64,000 nucleotides of DNA. Source: Giardia intestinalis (lineage: Eukaryota). The notes below the pieces were generated by a model. It saw nothing but the letters and a program-made list of their open reading frames with translations, made no database searches and was not told the DNA's origin. The position numbers and the translations under genes were made by a program. The stretch lies in NCBI GenBank assembly GCA_000002435.2, contig CM018793.1. One strand, written 5' to 3'. Position 1 is the first letter of the stretch, and every line of letters starts with the position of its first letter. Below, in pieces: positions 9,186 through 35,651 of the stretch.

Positions 9186-9681
9186 GCGTCACTGTATATG
9201 GCTTATTACACTATGCTGCTGGGGCTATCTGAGTGTGGCCCAGAGATTGTGCGGGTGGACCCGCTCCTTCCTGGCCAGTTCAGAGACGAGGGTTGAGTAT
9301 GGATAACATAATGAAAGAGTCCTCTTCAGTGACACATCCAGAATCTGGGCATTCCTCGCCGCTCCATGAGGATATGCTCTGTCTGGATGTCCATGCCGAT
9401 CTGCCTTGGATTCAGGCCTTCTCGCAGGCTCTCTGCTCTACCGGTGGCGCCTCTCCATGGTCTGCCGCCTTGGTGGGTGAAGCTCCGATCGCTGTCTTTT
9501 TTAGATGCTCCCGTCTGTCAGGGGCTGCCCTCGGGCTCTCCGCTGGCTGGGCCCTCGGTGTCCGCCCGGCTGTGGTTCTGGGCAGTGCTCTACAGTCGCG
9601 GTCACGCAGGTCTCAGTGGGCCAGCTGGTGGGTGGGGCGGGGGTTGATGGGGCGGTGGGACTGGAGGGGACCGGGTGGGGG

Positions 9682-19052: not shown

Positions 19053-20849
19053 CACCACAATACTAATAGATATCAATATGAAAATCATTATGCACAGGGA
19101 AGTTGATTGGTAGGAAGTCGATTTAGTTGCATTGTTCAGAGGTTCAGAAGCTGGAGGCATCTGCGGGGCAATGCATGAGTACATCTTGGCATTAGCAATA
19201 ATGGAAGCGGGTCCAGCCAAAGAGCTGTGTGCAGATATGTTTGATAATTGATTAAAGGCCACAGCTCTAACTGGGGTTATCAGCTCAGAACCAGGAGTCG
19301 GTGTAATCAATTTTTGGACTTCTAGGTCTCCTTCATCTCCTATGGTGAGCATCCTTTGCTGATCATTTGACGACTGTTGACTGTGTAGCTCGCATAAATA
19401 CTGGTGAATAGTTGCTACTTTTGGTTGCATTCTTAAGCAATCTTTTAGACAAGCTGCCCTATCCCTTACAGCAAACGGCAGAGAGGTGGAACACGAACCG
19501 ACAGTAAGACAGATCTCGATATCTCCGTCATCCTGAGTGGCTAACATAGTGCATGTATCCTTTGAAAGAATCAGGCAGTATGCATGCGTCTTTTCTATAG
19601 CCAGTAGCTTACATTCAATAGGTACCCAGATAGCATTCTTGGAAGTGGACAAAGACTTGAACTGCTTTCCGGGAACAACTACACGATAAGGGTGCTTTCC
19701 CCTAGACTTTCGCACTACGAAGATGTGAACTCCAGATGCTACTTTTGCACACACTACTGCTTGAAATGTGTCTGTCAACGCGCACCGGAGGAATTCCAGT
19801 TCATCTGTTCCAGTCACTCCAGTCACTTTGGCTATCGTTTGCTTCACAAAGGCGCTTCCAACAAATACGCAGAGACTACGTGCATCAGCACCCACAAAAA
19901 CTCCATTTCTATATGCGAGTGCACAGTTTTTGGACAGTTCGACGAGACTGATGCAAGGAAGATTTGGCCGTGTGCATTGAACGACATCGGGGCTGGTATC
20001 TTTTGTGCTGTATTGGTAGACCCTAGCACCTAACCTTTCCGTTAGATAATACTTTGTTTTTTCAGACTTAACTGGAACCCACAGATTAGACAGGGGTTGT
20101 GCAGCATACTCAGCTGTTTCGAGCTCATTGTCTGTTTTGAATTGAATAATTAGTGTGTCTGTACCATTGTCTTCTTCTAATATAACTGATAGAACTGTGC
20201 CTGGAACGGGAATTCGCGCCGGACTGTTTGTTACCTCGCCTAAATAATGCAAATAAACAACCCCGTAGGAGTGGGATTGAGTTACAGATGTACTTGCTAA
20301 AGACTCGTTCATTGGTGAGTAGTTACAAAGAGTAGCTACGTGTTGAGCCGTAATAGATAAGAATGGCTCCAGCGTCTCATCTACTTCCTTTTCAATGGGC
20401 ATAGTAAGAAGCGGTTTGAAGCTGTTTGTCCTGCCAGAGAACTCGATCAATACTATATCTTTCCTGGTGAGAAATGCAGTAACCAGTGTTCGACTTGCTC
20501 CCTCTGCGCAACCGTGGCAACGGACGAGTGGAGTAGTAGCAAAAAAGTGCATATCGACAAGCCCGGAAACAACGTAGTGTGCCGTAGCAAAGCATGTGAA
20601 GTTGGCTTGAAACTGTGCAGTAACCTTTCGTGTGCTAATATCGACAATCCAAAGCATGTCATCTCTTTGCGAAACAACTAGAACAGTCTCTTTCCAAAGT
20701 GATATCAAGTTGCCTGGGGAGGAGATGGGCGGTTTCAGATTGCACAAATCTAGAACTACTTCAGTCGTACTCAGAGAGGACGGGGTGCAGTAGGTAGTGA
20801 CTGCGAGCTCTTGCGTAGCTACATCATAATACACTGTAGCAGCTTGCAT
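19008..20849 (-). CDS. Hypothetical membrane-anchored protein, 613 aa, with a CX5R phosphatase-like motif (LVRCHGCAEGASRT) and C-terminal TM helix
   Basis: The ORF is long with an ATG at 20849. The CAEGASRT segment fits the C-x2-G-x2-R-[ST] motif of PTP/DSP active sites. The C-terminal segment LCIMIFILISISIVVLVQV is hydrophobic. Confidence 0.5.
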   Translation of the reverse strand: MQAATVYYDVATQELAVTTYCTPSSLSTTEVVLDLCNLKPPISSPGNLISLWKETVLVVSQRDDMLWIVDISTRKVTAQFQANFTCFATAHYVVSGLVDMHFFATTPLVRCHGCAEGASRTLVTAFLTRKDIVLIEFSGRTNSFKPLLTMPIEKEVDETLEPFLSITAQHVATLCNYSPMNESLASTSVTQSHSYGVVYLHYLGEVTNSPARIPVPGTVLSVILEEDNGTDTLIIQFKTDNELETAEYAAQPLSNLWVPVKSEKTKYYLTERLGARVYQYSTKDTSPDVVQCTRPNLPCISLVELSKNCALAYRNGVFVGADARSLCVFVGSAFVKQTIAKVTGVTGTDELEFLRCALTDTFQAVVCAKVASGVHIFVVRKSRGKHPYRVVVPGKQFKSLSTSKNAIWVPIECKLLAIEKTHAYCLILSKDTCTMLATQDDGDIEICLTVGSCSTSLPFAVRDRAACLKDCLRMQPKVATIHQYLCELHSQQSSNDQQRMLTIGDEGDLEVQKLITPTPGSELITPVRAVAFNQLSNISAHSSLAGPASIIANAKMYSCIAPQMPPASEPLNNATKSTSYQSTSLCIMIFILISISIVVLVQVRKLINYGLNS

Positions 20850-21766: not shown

Positions 21767-24700
21767 ATGACCAAGGGCATCACGACCATCAAATTCCGAT
21801 CATCTGTCAATCGGATCAGGGGCCCATCTGGTCGTTCTATTATCAATGGATATCATATCCTCAGGGAGCTGGGATCTGGCACAGAGTCCTCTGTACGCTT
21901 AGGACAGTCTCTACAGTCTGGGACGCAAGTGTCTGTCTACTTTCAACCCTTAACAGACTCCAGGAAAGGCTTTACTGGTTATAATGGAAGGTTTAATTAC
22001 TTTCAATTACTTGATAAAATTAACGTGCACGCTATACCAGGCACTCGCAGAGTCCTAGAAATATGGTACAATAAAAACTCGTGTATCCAGTTACACAAAC
22101 TACTTGTATGTGCTGGTGTGACCTTCATCGACAGCCTCTATGATACCACAGCCCCTCTAGGAGACACTGACTCAACAATCGCGCGAACCTTATTTTTGGT
22201 TGTTGAATACTGCAGCAACAGCGGCATTCAGCCCATCGTCGGGCAGCTCCACTACTCTGACTACATAAGCTTTTCTCGCAGGCTTTCCTACACCATCTAT
22301 AGCTTGCACAAAATAGGAATTATTCATAAAGACATTAAGGTTGATAATATTCTGTTCAATGAGAAACATTTGCGTCACAACGAGTTATTTTATGCCGAGG
22401 AGCACCCCCTCAGTGTAGATCCTTATCTGATCGACTTTGGTATAAGCATCGATTTAAGCTTACTAAATACAAAGATAATAACATTCGACACGATGCTACA
22501 AGGGATTGGCAGATTGCTCACGAAGGATCTAGGTCAAGTTACCACCTTAGAATGGTTTGACATAGAGGGCCCTGTGTATGCAATTTTAACAAAAAACGAA
22601 CGCGTTGAAAGGCTTATTGAGATTGTCATGTATTACATTAAGCATTTTTTCACAATAGAAAGCCTCAGAATTCTTGCAGACCCACTAATATCGAGCAATG
22701 AGAAGTTTATCACCAACAAGAATGGAACAATTGCATATTTACCACCTGAACTAAGTTGTGAAGACCTACACACTTCAATCTGTGATCGTCCAGGCTCTAC
22801 TATAAAGACACATGAGCAAGCTACATGTGCTCTTGCGGAGGTCTCTGTCCTCCCACGGTGTTCTACCCATCCACGCTGCAACAGCTTTAAGTTTAACAGA
22901 GACACTAGGTCTTGCAATCTATGTACTAGACACGAAACGTCAAGCCACGAAGAAGATGCTCTTGAGAGTGATCATATGGTTTCCCAGGCGACTCTCATCA
23001 AAAGTACTATTACTTTGTCGACGACTGCTAAGGAGTCGTCCAAGGAATTCTCTAGTACATTCAGAAAGATCTCTGCTTCTAACTCATTCTATGCTATCTT
23101 GCCCTCACCAGTTGATGTGTGGTGTTTTGGGGTGACCATCCTTTACATTATGATTGGCGCCGCACGCACAGAACCGTTGTATCGGCGAAGCAATGATGTG
23201 CTCGCCATTTCACAGCATCTTACCCCATTTACAACGGATCTACTCTGTGGATGCCTGGCACTGGACCCCGTTGAACGGTATACGGCAGAGGATATATCTA
23301 GACATCCCCTCTATGTGGGCTACCGTGTGAGCTATGAGGAAGACAATCTGACTACCTATGTCTCCAGCATAGCTGAGTACCGCAGACTGTTCGGTCTCCC
23401 ACCATGCTCTGAAGAAGGATTTGCAGATGAGGCGAAGGCCCCCATTGAAGATGACCTGGAACAGACAACAGGAAATGCTCTAGAAAACTACCATCAATAT
23501 ATTGTAAGGACACGTAGGAAAACAATCATATCGAATAACAAAAAACATATTCGCAGAGCATCTCTCTCCTCATTGGAGTCTGTCTTTCATGAGCACATCT
23601 TCAAAGATGTCTATACAGATGATACCATTCTGATGGCTCTTAAGCTACACAATTCAGATGTGCTTGCAGACCCTTGGATAAGCTCTGTACTTCTACAATT
23701 GGATTTAACCGCAATTTCTCTCCAAGTGCGCAACAGTATGGTACGATATCTCCACCCACAAGATTCCCCTAACAGCAGATCATATCTAGTTCCAAAGTTC
23801 TTTGATTTGGCACATACCCTTGGCAAGAGTCAATCAATCAGTCAAGGACTACTGTCCATGAGGCTGAAGTCTCTGACTTACCTTGCCACGCGCTTATTGG
23901 AGACGACGGTCTATCATAACAGCTATACTGACTTCAAGAAGCAAATTATGCCTGAGCATGTCCGTGGCTATACACATTGCGGGAGCCTTGTTCCCTGGGT
24001 GGCTGGGGCTTCTGCAGACGGTCAGGAGTGGGCTCGGTACCGCAGGTGCTGGGGCACAAGAGCCTCGGAGCAAGGGAGTATTTGTACCGAGTTGTTCTTG
24101 TTTTCGTCTGAGCGTTTATCCACCTTAACTTTGTCGTCCTCAGAATCTTCATCACCATCGATTGACAATATCAATCAGATAACCTTAGAGTTCAGCTCTC
24201 AAGGGGGTATGTCTTTTGCTGGAACACCTATTGAACCGTCATATTATCACTTAGCAAGAAACCAGTTACAATCACTACCAAAGGATGTTTCTATTTTCGG
24301 CGTACAGAGCACCTTACAGGCCGAACTTTCATATAGGGATGTCACAGAAGATGAGATCTCATCGTCTCAGTGTAAAATTACCGAGGAGAGTATCCTGACT
24401 GCACAACCAACAACTACATACACCGCGGACACAACCTTCGTATCTGAAACTCCTGGGACGTTTCATGAGTCTCATGACACGTCTCACGACTTATTTCCCC
24501 TGGGGCTTGCAACACCGTCCGAGCATCACATCATGGATCCGAAAATGTTTGCCACTCAAATCGTGCAGCCCCCATCCTGTGACCTGCTCAGTCACAATTT
24601 GCAGCTTCTTGATAAGACACTGGTCAGCCACAAGGTCGTAGCAGGACACCACCACACTAATAATTCATTACGGCGGTTTAAAGATACTCCTTTCAAAAGC

Positions 24701-27700
24701 TCTAACTTGATCAGTGTGGTAAAGCTTACGACGGCTAAGCCACCCAGTACTGGTAGTTATCAGTGTTCACAGTACCCTTTGTCAAAGGAACCGCCAGACA
24801 AGCATACCACAAATGAGTCAGCACACAAAAGATACAAAAGGAGCAATCTTCTCTTGGCCTCAACCGCGCGAACACTGAGAATGCATAAAAGTTATACTGC
24901 GAATTATCCTACCTACGATAATTGTCAGATCACTACAGATACAAGTACACTTTGCAGAGAACAGCCCGGAGGTTTTCAGATACAGAGAGAGCAGCCACAA
25001 CACACAGATGCCCTTGAATCAAAGTCCACACAAAGTACTTCTGTCTCTTTAAACATTCATATAGGGGGCAACGAGTTAGTATCTTTCCAGAGTCCATGCG
25101 TTCATCAGATTGGCAATATATCAATGCACAGTTCGTTTGAAAGCACAGATGTAGACGATGCCGTGCCGTACAAATTACGTAGCAACATCTTCAATTCGAA
25201 TACTAAGTTACCTGATATTAAAGTTGCTACCGAAGCAAATACACGGATGCGCTCATCGCTAGAGGATCCTAATTCTTTGATCAAGACTCGATTATGGGAT
25301 AAGAAGAAAATGGAAGAAAACTCCAATGCAACTGCCTTCGCACTGCATCACAACGCTAAGCACCCATCGCTGAGTGCACTGAGCACAACTAGAACCCTTC
25401 GCTATCAATTGCGAAATGCAATTGGGACAAAGGCAGACCACACTCTAGAGGTCTGTGGAAAAGTAGCGAATGCTGTTGTGCCGATCACAGCCAAACGAGT
25501 ACAATTCCATTGCCAGAGGAGGTACGCGCTGTTCAAGAAATCGCTTCCAAAGAAACATAATCCGCCGTTGAAGGTCTCTGTTGTTCTGAAAGCATCTACA
25601 ATAGACGAACAGAGCCAGGACGGCCAACAACCTTTCTGTCATCAAAATCCAGCAAGCACGTCGTCCTCAATATTAATGGTTAGACCCATTACCAACACAG
25701 CCATATCTCTCCAAACCAGCGACTCAACCACAACAACAGCAAGTACTGATGTTAAGTCCGTACAACTGCAAACACAAAGCAAAGTCTCCTCTAGTCTCAG
25801 GAAATCTCTGCTCACAAGCTCTGTTAACTGCGAAACATTCGATGTGGATACATCTACTACGACGGATTTTGAAATAGCTGGTTATAATGCCGCTTCTGGT
25901 ATCGAAAGGGACAGTCTAGTCCCCATTTCATCAGACATAAACGCCTCTCCAGCTATCGTTTCATCAGGAGCTTATACATCCGTTCTTACTTATGATACTC
26001 CAGTTCACGAACTGAACGATAAAAGTACCCATACTAAAATGACATCAACACTGTCTCATGACAACAGTCTTGTGGAGACAACTGGCGACGAAGAGCCTGC
26101 GAATATAGATCCAAGTACCTTGTCACAGACAGAGCCACGTTCGCTCAACTATCCCAAGAGCAGTTCAAAGCCTGTTTTATTGAATTTTCCAAATGTTCAG
26201 CCAACAATAGCGGACTCGGTAGATGTTCATGAGGCAAACCCTGCATATTCTGTTGGTATTCCGCCGAAACATGTCCATCAATTACATCATTGCCAGCACG
26301 CCAGAAGCATGCTCCAACTAGAGGTTCAGAAAGATAAGCAATTACAAGATGGAACGGACCTAAATATTATGCCAAATTCAGATAGCAATCACCAGGGAAA
26401 TAGATCTACGGTATTAGTGCCAACGGAACTAGCAGACAGATCTATACGTTTCTCAATGCAATGCACACATAAGCATTTCGTTAATGTCCTTAAGCGACGG
26501 AGTCGTGGTTCTAATCTTGCCCAGTTTCTCTTCAAGGAATTGGAGGTGCAGTATCCAATGGAGTCGCAGCTGCTGGCACCGAAACACTTTGACCTTTCGA
26601 CAAAAATATTCCAAGATACCACCACATCTGAGGAGACGTTTAGTAGCTCCAACCAAGATGACAGCCCAATGCCACTACCCAACTTTCTCTTCCGCTCCAG
26701 GACCCTTAATGCACTCATAGACTTGTCTGACATAGAAAGTTTTGATGACCCACATCTCACCAAGTGTTTCTCTGCCCAGAAGACCAAAAGATTAAGCTCT
26801 GCTTTGCAGAGTAAGGATTCTGCTCTCAAGGACAGAAGAGCCTCCAATTTTAGTGGGAATATATTTGCATCTAAGTGGCTCCATAACAATGTAACCACTA
26901 TACCAACTCTTCCATTAGTATCTACCCGTAACTTGGGGATAATCGAAAAGACTTTCATAGCGGAGGGAGCAGGCTCTTTAGACGGTTCGAAGCTAATTAG
27001 AATTAATCGGTATGACGCCAACAATTCCAATTTAAAGGAGGCTGCGTCTTATTTGCGGAATGCATGCACGTCGAATATCACAGAGCAGGATACCAATAGG
27101 CTTCGTCCATTCACTTATGAAGTTAGTGACACGAATAATGACGAAGCTAGCAATGAGAAACCCGCTACATCCACAGAACTATGCACTTTGCCTTCTTGCC
27201 AGTCAACCGGGGCTAATGACAATGTTAAGTGCTTCGAAGATAATCCTCAATTGAATGCATCAAAAATGCTGGACGCTAACCAACGGCACAGTATAGATAT
27301 CTCAGTAGACATATTAGATAGCTGCGAAACGTCTGACAAGAAAACTATTGGGGTGGATGAGTTGATGATACAGGCGATAAGTCCTGGAAATTTAGTGGAA
27401 CCGATAGATTTCCACAGGAACGGGTCTTTGTTGCTGCCAGACAGTGTCTTATCAGCAGGGTATACCCCGCAAACTGGAGATGAAGCAATATCATTCATGA
27501 ATCAGCAGACACCACACGGCCTTGAAGCAAGCACAGTTAGTTACATAGCTAAGGACTCGATAAATAATGATGTTTGCTGTTTGACGGTAGCTGAAGATAA
27601 TGAGGAGTTTCTATCTAAGTCAGATGAGCCATATACACCGACAAAAGAAAAGCAGGAGAAAAAGCGTCTGCCGGTGGCTCTCTCCAACAAGCTAGGCCAG

Positions 27701-28366
27701 GGAGACGTGTGGAAAAAGTGTGCTCAAATATCAGCCATAAGCTGCATAGACTCGCAGTCAATATTAGAAACTAAATGGCGAATACCAGACACCAATCCAA
27801 AGAACATTGGAGACACAAGAATAGTTCTGCCTACCGTGACAAGCAGCCCCTTAGCAAAGTACGTACAAGGACTGCCACGCTTTCTCAATAGATTTTTTCC
27901 GTTTTCTTTCACTCAGTCCCTCTTCAGTTCCGCAGCTAACGCACCGTATAGGTTATCTGGGTTGTTTTTTGCACATTACTACACTTATATGCTTCCTCAC
28001 GTCATTGAGCCGCTAGATATGTTTGCCAAACATGACCTCATGGAGGTGTCGCGAGAATATGAGCTGAGCTTAAGCGTGGACAGCGCACAAGAGACAGTAT
28101 TCGTCCCTGGCATCAATAATCCAGCTCCGAAAGCTCTGGTGGGGTCTTGTCGTACGATGTCTAATAATAAGGTTCTCAGATCCGCGGAAGCAGCTGTGAA
28201 AAAGCCGCCAGCTAGAACCTTGAACAATCTGAAGCTGACTGATTTTAGTGAGCTGTTCAATGACGTCAATGCAGACGAAGAGACCCACATATTGGAACTA
28301 GAAGCTAAGGATTCGCAATACGAAGGAAGCGAGTTCTTAATGGAGGATTATGATTCTGGCGTGTGA
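21767..28366 (+). CDS. Protein kinase, 2199 aa: N-terminal Ser/Thr kinase domain followed by about 1800 aa of low-complexity Ser/Thr-rich sequence
   Basis: It has a Gly loop LGSGTESSV, a catalytic loop IIHKDIKVDNILF and a DFG-equivalent IDFGIS. It starts at an ATG. Confidence 0.75.
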   Translation: MTKGITTIKFRSSVNRIRGPSGRSIINGYHILRELGSGTESSVRLGQSLQSGTQVSVYFQPLTDSRKGFTGYNGRFNYFQLLDKINVHAIPGTRRVLEIWYNKNSCIQLHKLLVCAGVTFIDSLYDTTAPLGDTDSTIARTLFLVVEYCSNSGIQPIVGQLHYSDYISFSRRLSYTIYSLHKIGIIHKDIKVDNILFNEKHLRHNELFYAEEHPLSVDPYLIDFGISIDLSLLNTKIITFDTMLQGIGRLLTKDLGQVTTLEWFDIEGPVYAILTKNERVERLIEIVMYYIKHFFTIESLRILADPLISSNEKFITNKNGTIAYLPPELSCEDLHTSICDRPGSTIKTHEQATCALAEVSVLPRCSTHPRCNSFKFNRDTRSCNLCTRHETSSHEEDALESDHMVSQATLIKSTITLSTTAKESSKEFSSTFRKISASNSFYAILPSPVDVWCFGVTILYIMIGAARTEPLYRRSNDVLAISQHLTPFTTDLLCGCLALDPVERYTAEDISRHPLYVGYRVSYEEDNLTTYVSSIAEYRRLFGLPPCSEEGFADEAKAPIEDDLEQTTGNALENYHQYIVRTRRKTIISNNKKHIRRASLSSLESVFHEHIFKDVYTDDTILMALKLHNSDVLADPWISSVLLQLDLTAISLQVRNSMVRYLHPQDSPNSRSYLVPKFFDLAHTLGKSQSISQGLLSMRLKSLTYLATRLLETTVYHNSYTDFKKQIMPEHVRGYTHCGSLVPWVAGASADGQEWARYRRCWGTRASEQGSICTELFLFSSERLSTLTLSSSESSSPSIDNINQITLEFSSQGGMSFAGTPIEPSYYHLARNQLQSLPKDVSIFGVQSTLQAELSYRDVTEDEISSSQCKITEESILTAQPTTTYTADTTFVSETPGTFHESHDTSHDLFPLGLATPSEHHIMDPKMFATQIVQPPSCDLLSHNLQLLDKTLVSHKVVAGHHHTNNSLRRFKDTPFKSSNLISVVKLTTAKPPSTGSYQCSQYPLSKEPPDKHTTNESAHKRYKRSNLLLASTARTLRMHKSYTANYPTYDNCQITTDTSTLCREQPGGFQIQREQPQHTDALESKSTQSTSVSLNIHIGGNELVSFQSPCVHQIGNISMHSSFESTDVDDAVPYKLRSNIFNSNTKLPDIKVATEANTRMRSSLEDPNSLIKTRLWDKKKMEENSNATAFALHHNAKHPSLSALSTTRTLRYQLRNAIGTKADHTLEVCGKVANAVVPITAKRVQFHCQRRYALFKKSLPKKHNPPLKVSVVLKASTIDEQSQDGQQPFCHQNPASTSSSILMVRPITNTAISLQTSDSTTTTASTDVKSVQLQTQSKVSSSLRKSLLTSSVNCETFDVDTSTTTDFEIAGYNAASGIERDSLVPISSDINASPAIVSSGAYTSVLTYDTPVHELNDKSTHTKMTSTLSHDNSLVETTGDEEPANIDPSTLSQTEPRSLNYPKSSSKPVLLNFPNVQPTIADSVDVHEANPAYSVGIPPKHVHQLHHCQHARSMLQLEVQKDKQLQDGTDLNIMPNSDSNHQGNRSTVLVPTELADRSIRFSMQCTHKHFVNVLKRRSRGSNLAQFLFKELEVQYPMESQLLAPKHFDLSTKIFQDTTTSEETFSSSNQDDSPMPLPNFLFRSRTLNALIDLSDIESFDDPHLTKCFSAQKTKRLSSALQSKDSALKDRRASNFSGNIFASKWLHNNVTTIPTLPLVSTRNLGIIEKTFIAEGAGSLDGSKLIRINRYDANNSNLKEAASYLRNACTSNITEQDTNRLRPFTYEVSDTNNDEASNEKPATSTELCTLPSCQSTGANDNVKCFEDNPQLNASKMLDANQRHSIDISVDILDSCETSDKKTIGVDELMIQAISPGNLVEPIDFHRNGSLLLPDSVLSAGYTPQTGDEAISFMNQQTPHGLEASTVSYIAKDSINNDVCCLTVAEDNEEFLSKSDEPYTPTKEKQEKKRLPVALSNKLGQGDVWKKCAQISAISCIDSQSILETKWRIPDTNPKNIGDTRIVLPTVTSSPLAKYVQGLPRFLNRFFPFSFTQSLFSSAANAPYRLSGLFFAHYYTYMLPHVIEPLDMFAKHDLMEVSREYELSLSVDSAQETVFVPGINNPAPKALVGSCRTMSNNKVLRSAEAAVKKPPARTLNNLKLTDFSELFNDVNADEETHILELEAKDSQYEGSEFLMEDYDSGV

Positions 28367-28615
28367 CCTCAGGTATTTCAGGATCGGAGCTTGGAGGTCT
28401 TTAACTTACAATGGAAGTGGTACTTGGCTCAGACTTGTTCGTACTTATGGAACTTTAATTTTTTGCCCTGAGGATTGCGTACTCAGTACGAACTGTTTGC
28501 CTGCTCAGGCAATCACCCCGGATATAAATTTTAGTTAATCTGTGATTGATCAGCTGCTTGACCGAATGTCTTCTGCGGTCCAACTCTCATTACCGTCAGG
28601 GACGATAAAATCCAG

Positions 28616-29572
28616 ATGCTCCTGTGTGCCACGTGCATGGAGTCGCGCGGAGGACCACAGACTCTAGAGATGGAGAATGGCAAGCACTCATGCAGTGTAT
28701 GCACCAAGCTGTTTCAGCGATACCGGGTCTATCAGCCGGAGAGATGGAGCACCTCTCTGCCTACTGCCATGTGCCGCGACTGCGCAGCTGCAAGACAATG
28801 CTGTCAAGTATGTTATTGTGATCTATCAACATTGATGGTCAACAGAGTTTACAGCAACACAGTCCCGCCCGGTGGATCATTTCTGCAAGCAGATGTGAAT
28901 GCAGACACGCTCCAAAAGCGCTATGAAGGACCCTTTTTGCAACACATGCAAGGATTCATACCTGTCTTTGTGTGTAGGATGACTTTGGTGGATCTTCGAA
29001 GTGCCAATGAAGAGCTGGTAAAAGAGGTGTGCAGTAATCTTTGCATCATGAGGTCTTTGATTGATCAAAGAGCGTCTAGCAGCACAGCAGAGAATTGTGC
29101 GGACCACACGACCATGCACATGACGATTAGTTTGTCCTCTGAGCAGCGGAGTGCATTCTTTCTGGACATCCCTCCAACGTGTGCCAGAATACGAGCATAT
29201 ATAGATCAACTCAGCGGGATGTTCAAAGAGATGCAGCGCATAGTAGCAGCTCAGCGCCTTCGCTTGGCCAATGTCTTCGGAGCCTTCGCAGATTTTGCTT
29301 ACGAGCCATTAGAGTTAGAGGAGTCCACAGCTACAGGAAAGCAGTGCAAATCTGACCTTCAATATGAGCATACAGAAAATGCACGAGTGATGAAGATAGA
29401 AGTGATTGTTATTGAACACAACTCATTTTCTTTGGAGCTCGTAATAAAAAGTGCCTTTCTCGCGGAGCTCATGTGCCTTCTAAAGGTGTACACTGAAGTG
29501 GATGCTATACTAGAAATAAGTGTGGACAACATTAGCGAGAAAGCTACTCTAGATAGTCAAATTCTCCGGTAA
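28616..29572 (+). CDS. Hypothetical protein, 318 aa, Cys-rich N-terminus (possible zinc-binding CxxC..CxxC..CxxC)
   Basis: It starts at an ATG with an aaaatccagATG context. Its 3' end overlaps Mnd1 by 29 nt. Confidence 0.45.
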   Translation: MLLCATCMESRGGPQTLEMENGKHSCSVCTKLFQRYRVYQPERWSTSLPTAMCRDCAAARQCCQVCYCDLSTLMVNRVYSNTVPPGGSFLQADVNADTLQKRYEGPFLQHMQGFIPVFVCRMTLVDLRSANEELVKEVCSNLCIMRSLIDQRASSSTAENCADHTTMHMTISLSSEQRSAFFLDIPPTCARIRAYIDQLSGMFKEMQRIVAAQRLRLANVFGAFADFAYEPLELEESTATGKQCKSDLQYEHTENARVMKIEVIVIEHNSFSLELVIKSAFLAELMCLLKVYTEVDAILEISVDNISEKATLDSQILR

Positions 29573-30155
29573 TTCCAAGCGCGGTAGAGACAGTCTTCTT
29601 GTCCATTTGCAATTTAGTCAGCATATATTTTTGCAAGCAGAAAATGTTGTCAGTCCATAGATTTGCTTCCTGTTTCGCAATATCTGTATAATTTCGTAGC
29701 TTCTGTGCAACGTCTGGATCGTTCTTAAGCAGATCGCGGAAGGTGCCTCGCTGCTCCTCTAGCTTCACCTGTAGTGCCAGTTTTTCTTTGAGCAGCGAAG
29801 ATCGTTCTTCTGTCTCCTCGCGGCCAACCTTCAGCTCCTCAATTCTTGCCGTCGCTTTATCTATAAAATTGGTTTGCTCCTCTAGTGCCTTCTGTAGACG
29901 GGCAAGCTCTGTGCGTGCAGCCTGAGAGCGCTTGGAAGCAAAGCACCAATAATAGGTACTGGCCCCTATCTTGTCCGTGTCTACAAGGTCCTCATTCACG
30001 AGGGCCTGGAGGACATTCTTAATGACCATTGAGGAGATTCCTGTGGGCTTGGAAAGGGTTTCGATGGTCTTATTGGAATATATTTCGCCTCTCTTGAGCA
30101 TTTCTTCCAGCAGTCTCTCTTTTTTCTCATCCAAGGATGTGCCTTTGGGTGCCAT
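29544..30155 (-). CDS. MND1: Meiotic nuclear division protein 1 homolog (Mnd1), 203 aa
   Basis: It is collinear with human MND1: GISSMVIKNVLQALVNEDLVDTDKIGASTYYWCFASK versus [37 protein letters not shown]. Further matches are VGREETEERSSL versus IGRCETEERTRL, ANLWTDNIFCLQKY versus ANRWTDNIFAIKSW, and GITGEFDYLE versus GIPEDFDYID. Confidence 0.85.
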   Translation of the reverse strand: MAPKGTSLDEKKERLLEEMLKRGEIYSNKTIETLSKPTGISSMVIKNVLQALVNEDLVDTDKIGASTYYWCFASKRSQAARTELARLQKALEEQTNFIDKATARIEELKVGREETEERSSLLKEKLALQVKLEEQRGTFRDLLKNDPDVAQKLRNYTDIAKQEANLWTDNIFCLQKYMLTKLQMDKKTVSTALGITGEFDYLE

Positions 30156-30341
30156 TTATTTCTCCTTTCTACTGCTTCTAGTAGAGCAAAGGATCGAAGA
30201 AGGGCAAGAGGGGCTGACTGTACACAGGTAAATACCAATTTCTGGGCCGATATGCCCACTTTTGAGGTCAGCTGTTACTGGTCTAACATCCCCTCTGCCA
30301 GGGATCTTCTTTAATTATTTGGATGAAAAATAGCAAAACGA

Positions 30342-33300
30342 ATGCCTCTCCTCAATGGGTTCCCCCTTACACCAGTAACCGAGACCATTCAAGCAACTTC
30401 CTCCAGTCTTTTTAGCATTCTCCTCACGAACGATTGCTTCTCATCCTACTCCGACTACATCACTAGGGTTCGCCAGCTTCAAAGCCCACTCTTTCAGTGT
30501 GTTACTACTATGGCTACCGGCCTCAGCTATCCGGAGGCGTTAACCAGCGAGCTGAGAGCTATCCATACCATCAGGCGCTTGCCCTCCTTTATTATACTCC
30601 ACTTCATACCGCTACTCGTGAACAAGGCCATGTCCAGTTACCTACTCCCTCTTCTTCTGCTCCCTACCGGTGAGAACGCCACGATAGACGAGTCTAAGCG
30701 TCGATATTTCTGTCAAATCAAAGAGCTGTACCATGAATGTCTCCACAACCTTCCATTCGTCGGAGAGCCCGTTCTTCTTTCTAATAAGCGCATTGGTATC
30801 ATAGTTCATGGATCAAACCTTTTTTCCGCAGCATTTGAAAGCCCCCAGGGCCAACAGGCCACTCTAAACTGCTCGTCAGCCGAGTATTGCGTTGCAGTGG
30901 AGATATCTGGATCTTGGGCCATAAGTTACATGAGGGATGTTGAGTCTGTCCTGGGTCACCAATTGAAAGATGTGATTGACTCTCTTGATGAGCCGTGCTT
31001 CACCTACACAGATGAAGATTCTGGGCTAGATCTGTACATCTTAAAAGAGGGGTCTTATGCCAGGTACACAGTAACGTATGATGATGGTGATGCCTCTCTT
31101 TTTGACTCTCCATCCGTCTATCCCTTGACAGCCTCTCAGTTTGAATACCTTTGCCTTTTGCTCAGATACTTCTTCAATAGCAAGGGAGCTATTCCACCCG
31201 AAGTATACCAAAAACTCCTTACCCTGGTTGATCACATTAATTTGAAAATAGGAGCAGTCAAACAGTCTGTTCAAGCTCAGCTGAACAAGTGCACAGACAT
31301 TAAAGATATAAAAAGCGTGTTTTCTTCCAAAGGACTTGACACCACAGGAATTCTCGAGCTATACATGTGCATCCTTGACGTTCATGCTACTATTCAACCA
31401 GTTCTTACGACCTTTCAGACCGATTGGCTATTTGACTCATGGAACAGAGCAATACACACTCTCTACCCACTACGGCCAGATAACAATCTGCTGGAGCTGA
31501 TTGCAGATAGAAACATGTTCAAGTCACAGGTCATGGGTGCAAACGTTTCGGTCGTAGGAAAGGTTAGCAGCTATGAGATTGACGGCCAAAAATTTTTTAT
31601 TGATGATTCCTTGGCTCTTTGCGAAGGTGAGCGTCGTATCCCTATTCGCATTTCCTTCGTACCGGATCCGCACGGCGCCGGATTGAAAAAATATCTTGAT
31701 ACTAAAAATAAAATAAAGCGACAAGATAACACATCTTCTTCGCAAGATGAGAGTGAGTCCATAGACATTCTGGTAACACCTTCTCGACGGGACTCTTCCG
31801 GCAGAGGCTCACGAGACCCCACTGGCAAGAAGAACACCGCACCATCTACTAAGCCTGTGCATGGTGAGCAAGATAATACTAATGATAACGATGACAACGA
31901 CGGGCCTTATGATTCAGCTGTCATGGACACCGCCACATCCTCTGGTGCCAAGCGATCTGGCGAAAAGACGAAAGGGAAGAGGGCGCCTAATGGCTGTCGA
32001 ACTATTAATGGGGAAATTGTTCGGCTCAAAGACCAAGTAACTATGGAGGTCCAGCCCGAGTGCATGCAACTTCAATCTCGCATCATGCTCAAAGATGATA
32101 TGGACATCATCGACTGCCCCCACAACGAATCCAAGCGCGCAGCTATCTTGCTCCATGAGCCTCTTGATAGACTAGTAAGTAAGGTTGATGACTCTGACTA
32201 TGAGGATATCACGGAGCTGAGTGCTATGTTCAAGACAGCAGACAAAACATCCGGGCTCTGCCAGATTCTCTACCCGCGTGGTGAGGACATTCAGGCGTTA
32301 TACACAAGTGTTAAGGACATGCCTTCCCATTTGTTCCAGTTAAAGTACAAGTACACAAGACCGCCTGACACACCACTCTATGCACCGTTTCGAGATGACA
32401 GTATCAATAAAGACAGCATATCAATGTCCCTGCTGATGACGGTCTGGGCGTTTTTGCAAGCTAACACGCTTTTTCTAAAGCTGCCCTTTATCAGTCTTGA
32501 AGATTTTTCTGATGCTCTCGATGTCACAGATCAGTTTGGTTATAAACGTCAACTGCAGTACCGGTCTTTAACTCCTGAGGAGCTTAAGCAAGCTGAGGAG
32601 GAAGATATTAAGGAGTATTATTTTGAGAAGTACCACTTGACAGATAAGAAAGACCAATTGGCTTCAACCTTTCCGGTGTTTAATGGTGATTTAATTTCTC
32701 CAATACTATATCTTGTTATGAGTCGGTTGGTCTCTCTTCTATACGATGGAGAAGAGGAGATTGTAGATGAAGTTCCTTATGAATATACACGAAAGACCTC
32801 ACTGGTACGGAGAACAGTATCAACATCATCAACAACATCAGCAACAGTAGTAAGAGCTGCCACGGCAGCGGATGCGATCAGCCGAAGCCCCACAGAGTCC
32901 GCTGGGTCTGCTACGGAGATCTCCACTGCACATGAAAACGTGAGCAGTGACGATCTGTCGTCGGGTGCTGATAATAAGCAGTCGCAAGAGGGCACCAAAA
33001 GCACTGAGTACTCGTACTATGAAACTGAGTATTCGTCAACAGAAGATGATATCCATGAGCAGCTGGAGAAAAAGAAGCCTCCGCCAAAAGCGGTAAAGAA
33101 GTCCCCCAAGTCGACGTCTAATGTATCTGTCCGTGTTTCTGGACAAGCTAACTCGAGGACCCCTCGGAAAGGACCAGCATCTAATAGTATCAAATCCAAA
33201 CGGAACACACAAGTCTCCGATGACTCAGCAGACGAGTACAGCGGCGAATATAGTTATACAGATTATACATACTCCGATGGCGAAGAAGAAACGTCATATT

Positions 33301-35651
33301 CTACTACGGATAACGTGGGCAGTTCACAGAGATCGGACCAGCGGACTACTGGGAAAAGAAGGATAGCAAACGCAAAGGAAAGGTCTAGTCGCAGTGGGCG
33401 CCTGAGCACACGATCAGAAGACCAAGGCTCTGAAAACCGAACAGAGGGCTACTACTGTTCAACGGATATAAGCTATACAGATGAGTGGGATGACATTGAT
33501 GGAAGCAAAGATACTTACTGGTATGACCAGGCTTTGCGGTATCTTCTGTCTCGCATCAACGAAAGTGATAGATTTACTGTCATTCTTCGGATTCTTCCCA
33601 TCTTTTTTAAACTGAAAATCAAATACCACAAACAGTTAGAGAAGGTTGCCTCAAACCTTTTAAGGGCTATTCTTTCAGCTATGTCTACTGACAACCTTCT
33701 AGCTGCCATTTTGAACGAGTGTATTAACCCCATAAGATCATATAGCAATGAAGAGAAGCAAGAAGCCATAGAGTTTGTCAGACAAATAGCTCTTTCAAGA
33801 GAAGAGCGTGCGAAGGAGCGCGAGGCAATCACAGTGCGGCAAAAGGGCAAGAGGACGCTGCGTATGTCGAAGAGCTCTAAGTACAGATCCAATAGTGCAC
33901 AGATAGCATTCAAAGACAGCCTTGCGGACTTCTTCGTCCTTCTACAAGAGTTAAGTGCGTACGGGAAAACCATTGAACAGCAACAAGAGTTACAGACATT
34001 TCCGCATGACGCAGATGACTATGGTATAACAGACATTGACCAAACCGCAGAAGAAGACCAGGAGACGAACACTATTGACTTCAAGCCGCCGACAAGCGTT
34101 GGGTCAGGGCAAGACACTGCTCCAGAGGAGCCTAAGCTAAAGAGAACCCGTGCAAAGGACCGCTTCCTTGAGTATATGCCGCACGTGCCATCCGCTTTAC
34201 TTAGTATTGCTCCTAGCTTGCATATGAGTGTCTGCATTATAGCCAGCTACATCCTGGAAAACGTCTACTTCATATTATTCCTGAAACGCCTCTTACAATA
34301 CTTGCATTTTTCAAGAGCAAAACAGAGACCTGCAGACTACACGCCATCACATATCCGTTTCCACCAGCTCAGTGTACAGGAAAAGCTAGAATTACTTAAC
34401 TATTTCATTCACCAGGTGTCAGAGACAGAAAACTATCACATTTACCAAGCCCAGGAACAATCGTACAGTGATTCCATAGAATCTATGTCGAAGGAGCTTG
34501 AAAGCGCACTATGTCTGCACTTTTTGAAGACCCGCAGAGAAACACGGAAGCATGAGCTTGATGGGCACAAGCATAAGTATGAGGAAAAGCTGAACGAAGC
34601 CAGGGATCTGTGTCTTGAGAAGGCTAAGATCGTCAATACCAAGTGGAAAGAGTTTGCAGAGCTAATTGGCGTTACTACAAAGAAGCTAATTGATGCTAAT
34701 TTAGTGTTTGAAGAGCTGGACGCAGACGGTTTAAGCGCTCTATCGGTCGACGATCCTGTCGCATACCAGAAATACGCTGGGTTCCAGACTCCAGAGCATG
34801 TCGATACCTTGAAAAAGTTGATGGACACTAAGGGTGGTACGGTAACCTTGGCAAATCAACAGATACGAGGTTTCAATATGCACTTGATACGTGCCATAGG
34901 ATCGTGCACCTCTGCGCTTAACAAATACAGAGAGTTAAAAAGAGTAGCCATTAGCAATCAGAAGTTCAATCATTTGTATCACGAGCGATTGGATTACCAG
35001 CAATTCAAGGCCCTTCACATCATGATCAACGCAGAGATGGATAACAAGATGTGCGCATTAGACACAGCGGACATCCACACTGATTGGTACATGAATCAGT
35101 TCTTTCTGCTTCCCGCAGAGTACGGATATTTGACAACTGCAGATCTTAATTATATGGTTATGTTCTCTGATGCGTTTATGAAGCGTAACGAGCTTTCATA
35201 CAAATTTAGGATGCTATCTCACAGACAGATGTTGAGGTATGCTGATCAGCTTGGTGCCACGCCGCGGGAGAAGATGCTGAAGGAGTGGGTGAAGCAAATG
35301 GATGGGCTCATCGCCAACTATCGCCTGTCCACTGCCGTCAAGAGCATCATCAGAAAGATGAACACTGCCACGCATGGCTATGAGACCATTCAGAAGATTA
35401 TCGGCACTACAGACATTGACACTGTTAACAGATGGATGGCAGAGTATGAAGAGAGACGCGAAAAATCAGGGGTAGATTCGGCCCAGAAAACAGAAAAGTA
35501 CACTACAGAACGCATAATGAAGCGGATGGAGCAGATGGGTGTCCCCAATTTCTCAACCAAACGAGCTTACCTCACATCTATCGCTGGAACACTCCGGTTG
35601 TCCCACCACGGGATACACTCGTTTCTTAAGCACGATGCATCCGCACTCTAG
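30342..35651 (+). CDS. Large hypothetical protein, 1769 aa, with an acidic Ser/Tyr/Asp/Glu-rich low-complexity core
   Basis: It has an uninterrupted ORF from an ATG with aaaacgaATG context. The composition is balanced outside the 32800..33480 low-complexity stretch. No domain is recognised. Confidence 0.6.
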   Translation: MPLLNGFPLTPVTETIQATSSSLFSILLTNDCFSSYSDYITRVRQLQSPLFQCVTTMATGLSYPEALTSELRAIHTIRRLPSFIILHFIPLLVNKAMSSYLLPLLLLPTGENATIDESKRRYFCQIKELYHECLHNLPFVGEPVLLSNKRIGIIVHGSNLFSAAFESPQGQQATLNCSSAEYCVAVEISGSWAISYMRDVESVLGHQLKDVIDSLDEPCFTYTDEDSGLDLYILKEGSYARYTVTYDDGDASLFDSPSVYPLTASQFEYLCLLLRYFFNSKGAIPPEVYQKLLTLVDHINLKIGAVKQSVQAQLNKCTDIKDIKSVFSSKGLDTTGILELYMCILDVHATIQPVLTTFQTDWLFDSWNRAIHTLYPLRPDNNLLELIADRNMFKSQVMGANVSVVGKVSSYEIDGQKFFIDDSLALCEGERRIPIRISFVPDPHGAGLKKYLDTKNKIKRQDNTSSSQDESESIDILVTPSRRDSSGRGSRDPTGKKNTAPSTKPVHGEQDNTNDNDDNDGPYDSAVMDTATSSGAKRSGEKTKGKRAPNGCRTINGEIVRLKDQVTMEVQPECMQLQSRIMLKDDMDIIDCPHNESKRAAILLHEPLDRLVSKVDDSDYEDITELSAMFKTADKTSGLCQILYPRGEDIQALYTSVKDMPSHLFQLKYKYTRPPDTPLYAPFRDDSINKDSISMSLLMTVWAFLQANTLFLKLPFISLEDFSDALDVTDQFGYKRQLQYRSLTPEELKQAEEEDIKEYYFEKYHLTDKKDQLASTFPVFNGDLISPILYLVMSRLVSLLYDGEEEIVDEVPYEYTRKTSLVRRTVSTSSTTSATVVRAATAADAISRSPTESAGSATEISTAHENVSSDDLSSGADNKQSQEGTKSTEYSYYETEYSSTEDDIHEQLEKKKPPPKAVKKSPKSTSNVSVRVSGQANSRTPRKGPASNSIKSKRNTQVSDDSADEYSGEYSYTDYTYSDGEEETSYSTTDNVGSSQRSDQRTTGKRRIANAKERSSRSGRLSTRSEDQGSENRTEGYYCSTDISYTDEWDDIDGSKDTYWYDQALRYLLSRINESDRFTVILRILPIFFKLKIKYHKQLEKVASNLLRAILSAMSTDNLLAAILNECINPIRSYSNEEKQEAIEFVRQIALSREERAKEREAITVRQKGKRTLRMSKSSKYRSNSAQIAFKDSLADFFVLLQELSAYGKTIEQQQELQTFPHDADDYGITDIDQTAEEDQETNTIDFKPPTSVGSGQDTAPEEPKLKRTRAKDRFLEYMPHVPSALLSIAPSLHMSVCIIASYILENVYFILFLKRLLQYLHFSRAKQRPADYTPSHIRFHQLSVQEKLELLNYFIHQVSETENYHIYQAQEQSYSDSIESMSKELESALCLHFLKTRRETRKHELDGHKHKYEEKLNEARDLCLEKAKIVNTKWKEFAELIGVTTKKLIDANLVFEELDADGLSALSVDDPVAYQKYAGFQTPEHVDTLKKLMDTKGGTVTLANQQIRGFNMHLIRAIGSCTSALNKYRELKRVAISNQKFNHLYHERLDYQQFKALHIMINAEMDNKMCALDTADIHTDWYMNQFFLLPAEYGYLTTADLNYMVMFSDAFMKRNELSYKFRMLSHRQMLRYADQLGATPREKMLKEWVKQMDGLIANYRLSTAVKSIIRKMNTATHGYETIQKIIGTTDIDTVNRWMAEYEERREKSGVDSAQKTEKYTTERIMKRMEQMGVPNFSTKRAYLTSIAGTLRLSHHGIHSFLKHDASAL

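What the first reader, a model, noticed from the sequence alone, without database searches (positions are those of the whole stretch)
29544..30155. Intact Mnd1 meiotic recombination gene, tail-overlapping its convergent neighbour
The protein is full length, collinear with human MND1, and has no frameshifts. Mnd1 acts with Hop2 to promote Dmc1/Rad51 strand invasion between homologues. Its retention in an organism with no observed meiosis is part of the evidence for cryptic sex or for cyst-stage nuclear exchange (established literature). The gene shares its last 29 nt with the 3' end of 28616..29572, so the two transcripts must overlap in antisense.
Basis: partly seen in the sequence, partly recalled or inferred. 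Interest (0 to 1): 0.5.

Follow-up and report, generated by a model that had tools for sequence, protein, structure and literature searches.

The report
Known Giardia Mnd1 gene, ordinary overlap
This is the already annotated and crystallised Mnd1 recombination gene of Giardia intestinalis; it is intact and strongly conserved, and its 29-base overlap with the neighbouring gene is normal for this compact genome.

Summary
An uninterrupted 203-codon ORF lies at 29544..30155 (-), and it shares exactly 29 nt with the 3' end of the convergent ORF 28616..29572 (+).

The protein is 100% identical over 203/203 residues to PDB 4Y66 chain A, which is Giardia lamblia WB Mnd1 (GL50803_6626, XP_001708984.1). 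Its heterodimer with Hop2 and its stabilisation of Dmc1 filaments were shown in 2015. It has been in the Giardia meiotic gene inventories since 2005.

- **Selection:** dN/dS among assemblages A, E and B is 0.03-0.04 (bootstrap 0.01-0.09).
- **Inactivating alleles:** the one truncated copy found has homopolymer indels typical of sequencing error.
- **Expression:** published RNA-seq shows basal expression in trophozoites, about a 2-fold rise late in encystation, and a 7-18-fold peak in cysts.

The coding overlap is present in assemblages A, E and B. It is absent, with gaps of 18 and 22 nt, in two other lineages that are probably D and C. The neighbour's tail varies freely. Published data show transcript overlap in 81% of tail-to-tail gene pairs in this genome.

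Verdict: real, correctly identified, already known. The overlap is incidental. Low interest.

The parts
29544..30155 (-). Mnd1 coding sequence, 203 aa plus TAG stop (GL50803_6626 / XP_001708984.1)
   Evidence: ORF list. 100% identical over 203/203 residues to PDB 4Y66_A. Exact match to XP_001708984.1 / E2RTU1_GIAIC, seen on 207 contigs.
29937..30110 (-). Winged-helix (Mnd1 HTH) domain, residues 16-73; dsDNA-binding end of the Hop2-Mnd1 rod
   Evidence: PF03962, E=4e-17, 62.7 bits against a cut-off of 23.5. The structural role is from PMC4402518.
29739..29936 (-). Central coiled-coil segment, residues about 74-139 (leucine zippers LZ1 and LZ2 that pair with Hop2)
   Evidence: Boundaries are inferred from the constructs of Kang et al.: Mnd1(111-203) = LZ2+LZ3wCH and Mnd1(140-203) = LZ3wCH. 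They were not determined independently here.
29550..29708 (-). LZ3wCH domain, residues 150-202 (third leucine zipper with capping helix); the module shown to bind the Dmc1 nucleofilament
   Evidence: PF18517, E=7.6e-14. Exo I protection assays with deletion constructs are reported in PMC4402518.
29544..29572 (.). 29-nt antisense overlap of the two coding sequences (Mnd1 ...TGEFDYLE* against neighbour ...TLDSQILR*)
   Evidence: Mnd1 third codon positions coincide with the neighbour's second positions. The overlap is present in assemblages A, E (L001) and B (L010). It is absent in L004 and L007.
28616..29572 (+). Convergent neighbour, 318 aa, with an N-terminal RBM22/Slt11-type zinc-finger region (probably GL50803_6625)
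   Evidence: PF21369 STL11_N, E=4.5e-8, residues 3-71. phmmer matches RBM22 chains, best E=6.7e-5, residues 2-74. The gene id is inferred from consecutive numbering and table order in PMC8700996 Table S1.
30156..30341 (.). 186-nt divergent intergenic region between Mnd1 and the 1769-aa gene at 30342..35651; presumed shared promoter region
   Evidence: No exact Myb2 site (CWACAG) was found. Promoter function is inferred, not tested.

Best explanation
The locus is the Mnd1 gene of Giardia intestinalis assemblage A (WB), GL50803_6626.

Shown for this exact protein in the literature: it forms a parallel coiled-coil heterodimer with Hop2 (GL50803_17044). Its N-terminal winged helix sits beside that of Hop2 to form a dsDNA-binding face. 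Its C-terminal LZ3wCH module binds and stabilises the Dmc1-ssDNA filament.

Inferred from orthologues in yeast, mouse and human: the complex bridges the presynaptic filament and donor duplex and so promotes strand invasion.

Inferred for Giardia: the gene is under strong purifying selection because homologous recombination is in use. That use is most likely greatest in the cyst stage, given the cyst peak of mRNA, the nuclear fusion and exchange described as diplomixis, and the co-induction with Spo11 and Hop1. A basal role with Dmc1B in trophozoite double-strand-break repair is also likely.

The 29-nt tail overlap with the convergent RBM22/Slt11-like gene is a by-product of genome compaction. 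The neighbour's reading frame simply runs on into the constrained 3' end of Mnd1, and there is no sign of a regulatory role.
For: **Identity**
- 203/203 residues match PDB 4Y66_A, and the sequence matches XP_001708984.1 exactly.
- Both Pfam Mnd1 domains are present.

**Biochemistry (PMC4402518)**
- The protein forms a stable heterodimer with Hop2, the full-length complex was crystallised, and LZ3wCH is sufficient for Dmc1-filament protection.

**Constraint**
- NG86 dN/dS is 0.040 (A-E), 0.028 (A-B) and 0.038 (E-B), with bootstrap 95% intervals within 0.011-0.091.
- YN00 gives 0.05-0.11 across four lineages.
- Full-length orthologues exist in G. muris and other diplomonads and fornicates.
- The only truncated copy is a 1-nt deletion in an A5 run. 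It sits on one 1.9-kb contig that also carries a homopolymer indel in the neighbour and no substitutions.

**Expression (PMC8700996 Table S1, log2 CPM, three series)**
- Trophozoite 5.85/6.07/6.40; 31.5 h 7.07/7.26/6.94; cyst 10.02/9.62/9.24; excyzoite 5.75/6.02.
- The paper's text states that Mnd1 is up-regulated at 17.5 h.

**Overlap is incidental**
- 81% (892/1097) of tail-to-tail pairs in WB overlap at transcript level.
- In this window, crude ORF calls give convergent-pair gaps of -84, -45, -29, 18, 39, 217 and 664 nt.
- The overlap is absent in L004 and L007, where the neighbour ends 18 and 22 nt beyond Mnd1 and lacks the last 11 residues or so.
- The neighbour's tail differs between assemblages (TLDSQILR / TLDSQIPQ / TPNSQNLQ), while Mnd1 keeps ITG[E/D]FDYLE.
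- Synonymous changes in the last 9 Mnd1 codons are as frequent as elsewhere: 2/9 vs 46/203 for A-E and 3/9 vs 73/203 for A-B.
- The two genes have parallel, not opposed, expression profiles.
Against: - No in vivo loss-of-function data for Giardia Mnd1 were found in the papers searched. The cellular process it serves (meiosis, diplomixis or repair) is therefore inferred from expression and from its partners.
- The in vitro work showed filament protection. It did not show D-loop stimulation by the Giardia proteins.
- Whether the encystation RNA-seq was stranded could not be established from the text. If it was unstranded, read-through antisense reads could inflate the similarity between the profiles of 6625 and 6626.
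- Neither gene has a canonical AGURAA poly(A) signal within about 1.6 kb downstream of its stop codon. The real 3' ends, and so the length of the RNA overlap, are unknown.
- The number of codons in the overlap is too small for a statistical test of relaxed or added constraint.
Confidence: 0.88

Rival explanations
1. Mnd1 is retained because Giardia has a conventional but unobserved meiosis (cryptic sex between cells). Hop2-Mnd1 would then act with Dmc1A on Spo11-induced breaks between homologues.
For: Strong purifying selection. Spo11, Hop1, Hop2, Mnd1, two Dmc1 copies and Mer3 co-occur in the genome (PMC2488364). Population-genetic signs of recombination are cited there. Mnd1 is induced along with other meiotic homologues during encystation.
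Against: Meiosis and sexual stages have never been seen. Giardia lacks 8 of 29 inventory genes, including Msh4, Msh5, Rec8 and Rad21. The tagged homologues act in cyst nuclei of a single cell, a process described as non-meiotic. Mnd1 mRNA is also present in trophozoites. Possession of meiosis genes is a weak predictor of sex (PMC4413856).
Confidence: 0.2
2. Mnd1 is kept only for somatic double-strand-break repair. Giardia lacks Rad51, and Dmc1B acts as its substitute in trophozoites. Hop2-Mnd1 would be a general cofactor, and the link to meiosis or cysts would be secondary.
For: Giardia has two Dmc1 genes and no Rad51. Dmc1B is reported to act as Rad51 in DNA-damage repair in trophozoites (Torres-Huerta 2016, cited in PMC5021851). 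Mnd1 mRNA is present at about 60-80 CPM in trophozoites. Hop2-Mnd1 also stimulates Rad51 and works in human ALT cells (PMC4402518 introduction).
Against: The 7-18-fold mRNA peak in cysts and the return to baseline after excystation are not expected for a purely housekeeping repair factor. However, cysts also replicate DNA and show more double-strand breaks, so this argument is weak. Neither GdDMC1A nor GdDMC1B complemented a yeast rad51 deletion.
Confidence: 0.25
3. The 29-nt coding overlap, together with the longer UTR overlap, is a functional antisense module. Convergent transcripts would form dsRNA that Giardia Dicer and Argonaute, or transcriptional interference, use to couple or limit expression of Mnd1 and the RBM22-like gene.
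For: Both mRNAs must contain the shared 29 nt. Both are present at the same stages. Neither has a canonical AGURAA signal nearby, so the 3' UTRs may run further into the partner gene. The convergent arrangement is kept in five G. duodenalis lineages.
Against: The coding overlap is absent in two lineages. There is no extra constraint on Mnd1 synonymous sites in the overlap. The expression profiles run in parallel rather than reciprocally. 81% of tail-to-tail pairs overlap genome-wide, so nothing singles this pair out. The convergent neighbour is not conserved in G. muris or in the lineage of L009.
Confidence: 0.05
4. The overlap is an annotation or ORF-calling artefact. The neighbour's true C-terminus would lie upstream, as in the lineages where it ends ...VDIGN or ...ADIAN, so there would be no real coding overlap.
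For: The last 11 or so residues of the neighbour are absent in L004 and L007 and are poorly conserved among A, E and B.
Against: In A, E and B the frame is open with no in-frame stop before 29570-29572. Translation must therefore run to that stop unless an intron or early polyadenylation intervenes, and no AGURAA signal or other evidence for that is seen. The same 29-nt overlap is found independently in three assemblages.
Confidence: 0.04

Closest known systems
Giardia lamblia ATCC 50803 Mnd1, GL50803_6626 (PDB 4Y66 chain A; XP_001708984.1; UniProt E2RTU1)
   Same: Identical sequence over 203/203 residues. It is the same gene.
   Different: Nothing.
Human and mouse MND1 (partner of HOP2/PSMC3IP/TBPIP)
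   Same: Same length class (203 vs 205 aa). Same order of winged helix, coiled coil and LZ3wCH. 35% identity with a single 1-residue gap. The C-terminal [DE]FDY motif is conserved.
   Different: In Giardia there is no Rad51 orthologue and the only recombinases are Dmc1A and Dmc1B. No meiosis has been observed. mRNA is present in vegetative cells and peaks in cysts, rather than being restricted to meiotic prophase.
Swi5-Sfr1 / Mei5-Sae3 recombinase accessory heterodimers
   Same: Kang et al. report an elongated, kinked, parallel coiled-coil heterodimer with a capped terminal zipper that fits the recombinase filament groove.
   Different: There is no detectable sequence family relationship. Those complexes lack the paired winged-helix dsDNA-binding end. 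The comparison was not tested here.
Overlapping 3' ends of tail-to-tail gene pairs in Giardia and other compact genomes
   Same: Convergent genes whose mRNAs overlap. This was reported for 892 of 1097 mapped tail-to-tail pairs in WB. Two other convergent ORF pairs in this window also overlap in crude ORF calls.
   Different: Here the overlap reaches into both coding sequences (29 nt), not only the UTRs. It is present in assemblages A, E and B only.

Membership tests
Mnd1 (meiotic nuclear division protein 1) family | N-terminal winged-helix / Mnd1 HTH domain (PF03962) | tested here: met
   E=4e-17, 62.7 bits against a cut-off of 23.5; residues 16-73 cover profile positions 2-60 of 60.
Mnd1 (meiotic nuclear division protein 1) family | C-terminal leucine zipper with capping helix (LZ3wCH, PF18517) | tested here: met
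   E=7.6e-14, 51.9 bits against a cut-off of 26.1; residues 150-202 cover profile positions 3-55 of 55.
Mnd1 (meiotic nuclear division protein 1) family | End-to-end collinearity with animal MND1, about 200 aa, without extra domains | tested here: met
This agrees with the published 35%/57%. Hits to Tribonema and other eukaryotic Mnd1 proteins cover 100% of the query.
Mnd1 (meiotic nuclear division protein 1) family | Stable heterodimer with Hop2 | not testable with these tools
   Shown experimentally for this exact sequence by co-expression and the crystal structure 4Y66 (PMC4402518). The Hop2 gene (GL50803_17044) was not looked for in this window.
Mnd1 (meiotic nuclear division protein 1) family | Binds and stabilises the Dmc1/Rad51 presynaptic filament and stimulates strand invasion | not testable with these tools
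   Exo I protection of Dmc1-bound ssDNA by Giardia Hop2-Mnd1 is published. D-loop stimulation by the Giardia proteins was not reported in the sections I read.
Mnd1 (meiotic nuclear division protein 1) family | Gene under purifying selection (functional retention) | tested here: met
   dN/dS is 0.028-0.040 by NG86 with bootstrap intervals of 0.011-0.091, and 0.05-0.11 by YN00. There is no credible inactivating allele.
Regulatory natural antisense (convergent) transcript pair | Overlap conserved among related lineages beyond what coding constraint explains | tested here: not met
   The coding overlap is absent in L004 and L007. There is no deficit of synonymous changes in the overlapped Mnd1 codons.
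Regulatory natural antisense (convergent) transcript pair | Reciprocal or otherwise coupled expression attributable to the overlap | tested here: inconclusive
   The published profiles of GL50803_6625 (inferred neighbour) and 6626 run in parallel. Two further adjacent genes share the same pattern, and the strandedness of the library is unknown.

The most novel reading that the evidence does not exclude
The convergent pair Mnd1 / RBM22-like gene lies inside a run of four adjacent genes (GL50803_6624, 6625, 6626, 16427) whose mRNAs all peak in cysts. This run could be a co-regulated cyst-stage chromatin or transcription domain. Within it, the antisense 3' overlap, with no canonical poly(A) signal on either side, could produce dsRNA that feeds the Giardia Dicer/Argonaute pathway and tunes recombination-factor dosage at the stage when nuclei fuse.
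Probability: 0.04. Interest if true: 0.45.

Novelty: already known. Interest (0 to 1): 0.08.

Why it matters
The gene matters as part of the long-standing argument that Giardia inherited, and still uses, the meiotic recombination machinery. It is also the source of the only full-length Hop2-Mnd1 crystal structure. All of that is published.

This re-examination adds modest material:
- Explicit dN/dS values showing very strong constraint across assemblages.
- Evidence that the single truncated copy in public assemblies is a sequencing artefact.
- Evidence that the 29-nt coding overlap is confined to assemblages A, E and B and places no detectable constraint on Mnd1.

None of this opens a new question.

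Tried and rejected
- **Poly(A) signals.** I looked for canonical Giardia signals (AGTRAA) to predict the two 3' ends. There are none on either strand between 27913 and 33573. Only one-mismatch variants occur: AGTATA at +36 and AGTGTA at +53 after the Mnd1 stop, and AGAAAA at +70 after the neighbour's stop. The 3' ends therefore cannot be predicted.
- **Measured 3' UTRs.** I searched the supplements of PMC9014877 and PMC3610916 for GL50803_6626. It is not in the held text.
- **Myb2 sites.** I looked for an exact Myb2 site (CWACAG) upstream of Mnd1 to explain encystation induction. There is none in 30101..30400.
- **Carpenter et al. 2012.** I tried to read PMC3383261 for Mnd1 tagging and localisation. 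It is not held. My recollection that Mnd1-GFP is seen in both trophozoites and cysts is unverified and I did not use it.
- **Direction of the overlap change.** I tried to polarise the gain or loss of the overlap. G. muris and the lineage of L009 have a different, co-directional downstream neighbour. The published tree places C+D apart from A, E and B, with A closer to E than to B, so one change in either direction fits and the direction stays unresolved.
- **Identity of L004 and L007.** Their assignment to assemblages D and C rests only on the run accessions ERR3333379/82/83 matching the sample order in PRJEB32663. It is unverified.
- **Saturated comparisons.** NG86 dS is saturated for A-L004 and E-L004 in Mnd1 (reported as -1) and the calculation fails outright for three neighbour-gene comparisons involving L004. 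Those pairs rely on YN00 or are omitted.
Full report
**1. Observation**

The six-frame ORF list shows an ATG-initiated ORF of 203 codons at 29544..30155 on the minus strand. A convergent 318-codon ORF lies at 28616..29572 on the plus strand.

Reading the bases confirms that the Mnd1 stop is TAG, at 29546-29544 on the minus strand. The neighbour's stop is TAA at 29570-29572. The two coding sequences therefore share exactly 29 nt, 29544..29572. The frames are offset so that Mnd1 third codon positions coincide with the neighbour's second positions.

**2. Identity**

- Pfam finds both diagnostic Mnd1 domains in the expected order: Mnd1 HTH (PF03962, E=4e-17, residues 16-73) and LZ3wCH (PF18517, E=7.6e-14, residues 150-202).
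- A search of PDB sequences returns 4Y66 chain A, named Mnd1, identical over all 203 residues with E=3.9e-128.
[quoted passage not shown] Its authors name the gene GL50803_6626 and report 35% identity and 57% similarity to human Mnd1 (PMC4402518).
- An exact-sequence look-up finds the protein as XP_001708984.1 / UniProt E2RTU1, 'Mnd1 [Giardia intestinalis]', on 207 contigs.
Agreement with the published figures supports both the recalled sequence and the collinearity claim.

The window is therefore G. intestinalis assemblage A (WB-like), and the gene is a known, annotated, structurally solved gene.

**3. What the protein does**

Shown for this exact protein (PMC4402518):
- It forms a stable heterodimer with Hop2 (GL50803_17044).
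- The complex is a curved rod of three leucine zippers. Two juxtaposed winged-helix domains sit at one end and a capped helical bundle (LZ3wCH) at the other.
- In exonuclease I protection assays, constructs retaining LZ3wCH (Mnd1 residues 140-203 with Hop2 144-231) protect Dmc1-bound ssDNA as well as wild type. Constructs lacking it do not.

Inferred from orthologues: the complex bridges the Dmc1 or Rad51 presynaptic filament and the donor duplex, and it stimulates D-loop formation.

The 29-nt overlap falls in the last nine codons of this Dmc1-binding module. That stretch includes the [DE]FDY motif, which is conserved from Giardia to human.

**4.

I retrieved the orthologous loci from several lineages:
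- Assemblage E, strain P15 (L001-L003).
- Assemblage B (L010 and L011).
- Two further G. duodenalis-complex lineages: L004-L006, with 88% amino-acid identity, and L007, with 89%.
- G. muris (L008) and a relative of it (L009).

All encode uninterrupted proteins of 202-203 aa.

| Comparison | Gene | Method | dN/dS | Bootstrap 95% interval |
|---|---|---|---|---|
| A-E | Mnd1 | NG86 | 0.040 | 0.011-0.091 |
| A-B | Mnd1 | NG86 | 0.028 | 0.012-0.045 |
| E-B | Mnd1 | NG86 | 0.038 | 0.015-0.073 |
| Four lineages, pairwise | Mnd1 | YN00 | 0.05-0.11 | not computed |
| All computable pairs | Neighbour | NG86 | 0.16-0.29 | not computed |

The neighbouring gene, at the same synonymous divergence, is five to eight times less constrained than Mnd1.

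The 90% cluster contains one truncated member, P0016 (129 aa). Its contig, L012 (1883 nt, one Logan assembly), is identical to the window over about 900 nt apart from two homopolymer indels. One is a 1-nt deletion in an A5 run of Mnd1. The other, in a T5 run of the neighbour, is a 2-nt deletion with one substituted base. That pattern points to a sequencing or assembly error, not an allele.

Relaxed constraint and inactivating alleles, the stated refutation conditions, are therefore not found.

**5.

This has already been published. The encystation time course of Rojas-Lopez et al. (PMC8700996) states that Mnd1 is up-regulated at 17.5 h. Table S1 of that paper gives log2 CPM for GL50803_6626 in three series:

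| Stage | Series 1 | Series 2 | Series 3 |
|---|---|---|---|
| Trophozoite (0 h) | 5.85 | 6.07 | 6.40 |
| 31.5 h encystation | 7.07 | 7.26 | 6.94 |
| Cyst | 10.02 | 9.62 | 9.24 |
| Excyzoite | 5.75 | not sampled | 6.02 |

The gene is thus expressed at a basal level in vegetative cells. It rises about 2-fold late in encystation and 7-18-fold in cysts, then returns to baseline.

Other papers summarise Poxleitner et al. 2008 as showing that GFP-tagged Dmc1(A), Spo11 and Hop1 localise to cyst nuclei but not trophozoite nuclei, at the stage when nuclei fuse and exchange DNA. I could not read the primary papers.

Giardia lacks Rad51 and has two Dmc1 paralogues. Dmc1B is reported to act as the Rad51 equivalent in trophozoite DNA-damage repair. 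Purifying selection on Mnd1 is therefore compatible with three uses: cyst-stage recombination (diplomixis), cryptic meiosis, and somatic repair. The cyst peak favours a cyst-stage role on top of a basal one, but the sequence alone cannot separate them.

**6. The overlap**

*Distribution.* The convergent arrangement with the same neighbour is conserved in all five G. duodenalis-complex lineages sampled.
- The coding overlap of 29 nt is found in A, E and B. In B the neighbour ORF is intact at 305 aa.
- In L004 the neighbour ends ...VDIGN*, 18 nt beyond the Mnd1 stop. In L007 it ends ...ADIAN*, 22 nt beyond.
- The run accessions (ERR3333379/82 and ERR3333383) fit the sample order of the dog-assemblage project PRJEB32663, so L004 is probably assemblage D and L007 probably C. 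This is unverified.
- The published tree puts C and D in one clade, apart from A, E and B, with A closer to E than to B. G. muris lacks the convergent neighbour. The direction of change is therefore unresolved.

*Lability of the neighbour's tail.* In A, E and B the neighbour carries about 11 extra C-terminal residues: SEKATLDSQILR, NGKITLDSQIPQ and SEKATPNSQNLQ. These vary wherever Mnd1 has synonymous changes, while Mnd1 keeps ITG[E/D]FDYLE.

*Constraint on Mnd1.* Synonymous differences in the last nine Mnd1 codons (2/9 for A-E, 3/9 for A-B) match the gene-wide rates (46/203 and 73/203). The neighbour's tail therefore imposes no visible constraint, although the numbers are small.

*Genome-wide context.* Franzen et al. 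mapped 3' ends in WB and found transcript overlap in 892 of 1097 tail-to-tail pairs, which is 81% (PMC3610916). The median 3' UTR is 59 nt (PMC9014877). In this window, crude ORF calls give convergent-pair gaps of -84, -45, -29, 18, 39, 217 and 664 nt.

It describes the normal state of this genome.

*Co-expression.* The published profiles of GL50803_6625 (inferred to be the neighbour from its numbering and its place in the table) and 6626 are nearly superimposable. That argues against mutual antisense repression. However, I could not establish whether the library was stranded.

*Poly(A) signals.* Neither gene has a canonical AGURAA signal. None occurs on either strand between 27913 and 33573, and only one-mismatch variants lie downstream of the two stops. 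About 40% of Giardia genes likewise lack AGUAAA or AGUGAA. The true extent of the RNA overlap is unknown.

**7. Comparison with what is known, and novelty**

The locus is not merely a member of the Mnd1 family. It is the family's structural reference protein. Every sequence-level defining feature tested here is met, and the biochemical ones are published for this exact sequence.

The regulatory antisense reading fails the conservation test and is not supported by the expression data. Nothing here lies outside known systems.

**8. Verdict**

The new items are minor. They are the explicit dN/dS values, the dismissal of the one truncated copy as an artefact, and the restriction of the coding overlap to A, E and B with no detectable constraint. 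Interest is low.

Noticed in passing
window 2936..9684 and 11426..18175: A large, essentially perfect inverted duplication. The arms 3451-9684 and 11426-17659 are 6234 nt and 100% complementary. They continue, after a one- to two-base interruption in each arm, as 2936-3449 and 17662-18175 (514 nt, 99% complementary). A 1741-nt spacer separates the inner arms. Each arm carries a 593-aa ORF (7385..9166 + and 11944..13725 -) and a 137-aa ORF. This could be a recent palindromic duplication or an assembly feature. I did not identify the genes.
   Followed up: partly
window 28616..29572 (+): The convergent neighbour has only the N-terminal zinc-finger part of the spliceosomal RBM22/Slt11 family. STL11_N matches at E=4.5e-8 over residues 3-71, and phmmer matches RBM22 chains of spliceosome structures at E=6.7e-5. 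No CCCH finger or RRM was detected in residues 80-318. It may be a reduced RBM22/Slt11 orthologue in an organism with very few introns. Its dN/dS is 0.16-0.29.
   Followed up: partly
window 21767..35651 (four adjacent genes): In PMC8700996 Table S1, four genes listed consecutively all rise through encystation and peak in cysts. GL50803_6624 goes from 7.07 to 11.83 log2 CPM, 6625 from 5.70 to 10.75, 6626 (Mnd1) from 5.85 to 10.02, and 16427 from 5.96 to 9.84. The next gene, 6672, is flat. If the ids map to the 2199-aa kinase, the RBM22-like gene, Mnd1 and the 1769-aa gene, as their order suggests, this is a small cluster of neighbouring genes with the same cyst-peaked profile. The mapping and the strandedness of the library are unverified.
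   Followed up: partly
window 27913..33573, both strands: There is no canonical Giardia poly(A) signal (AGTAAA or AGTGAA) in this 5.6-kb stretch, which spans three gene ends. The window as a whole has 63 matches, as expected by chance.
   Followed up: partly
L012 (Logan SRR26410991 contig), positions about 1035 and 1370: The only truncated Mnd1 in the 90% cluster (P0016, 129 aa) is caused by a 1-nt deletion in an A5 run. The same contig has a second indel, in a T5 run of the neighbour gene (two bases deleted and one substituted), and no other difference from the window over about 900 nt. This is most likely sequencing error.
   Followed up: yes
window 18489..19052 (+) / 19008..20849 (-); 52835..53473 (+) / 51285..52877 (-); 55471..56604 (-) / 56525..57826 (+): Crude ORF calls show other coding overlaps: one convergent (45 nt) and two divergent (43 and 80 nt). 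These may reflect over-long ORF starts or real overlaps. I did not examine them.
   Followed up: no
window 30342..35651 (+): The 1769-aa gene divergent from Mnd1, 186 nt away, has orthologues carrying a WAC_Acf1_DNA_bd (PF10537) hit. It is a possible chromatin-remodelling accessory factor that may share a bidirectional promoter region with Mnd1.
   Followed up: no
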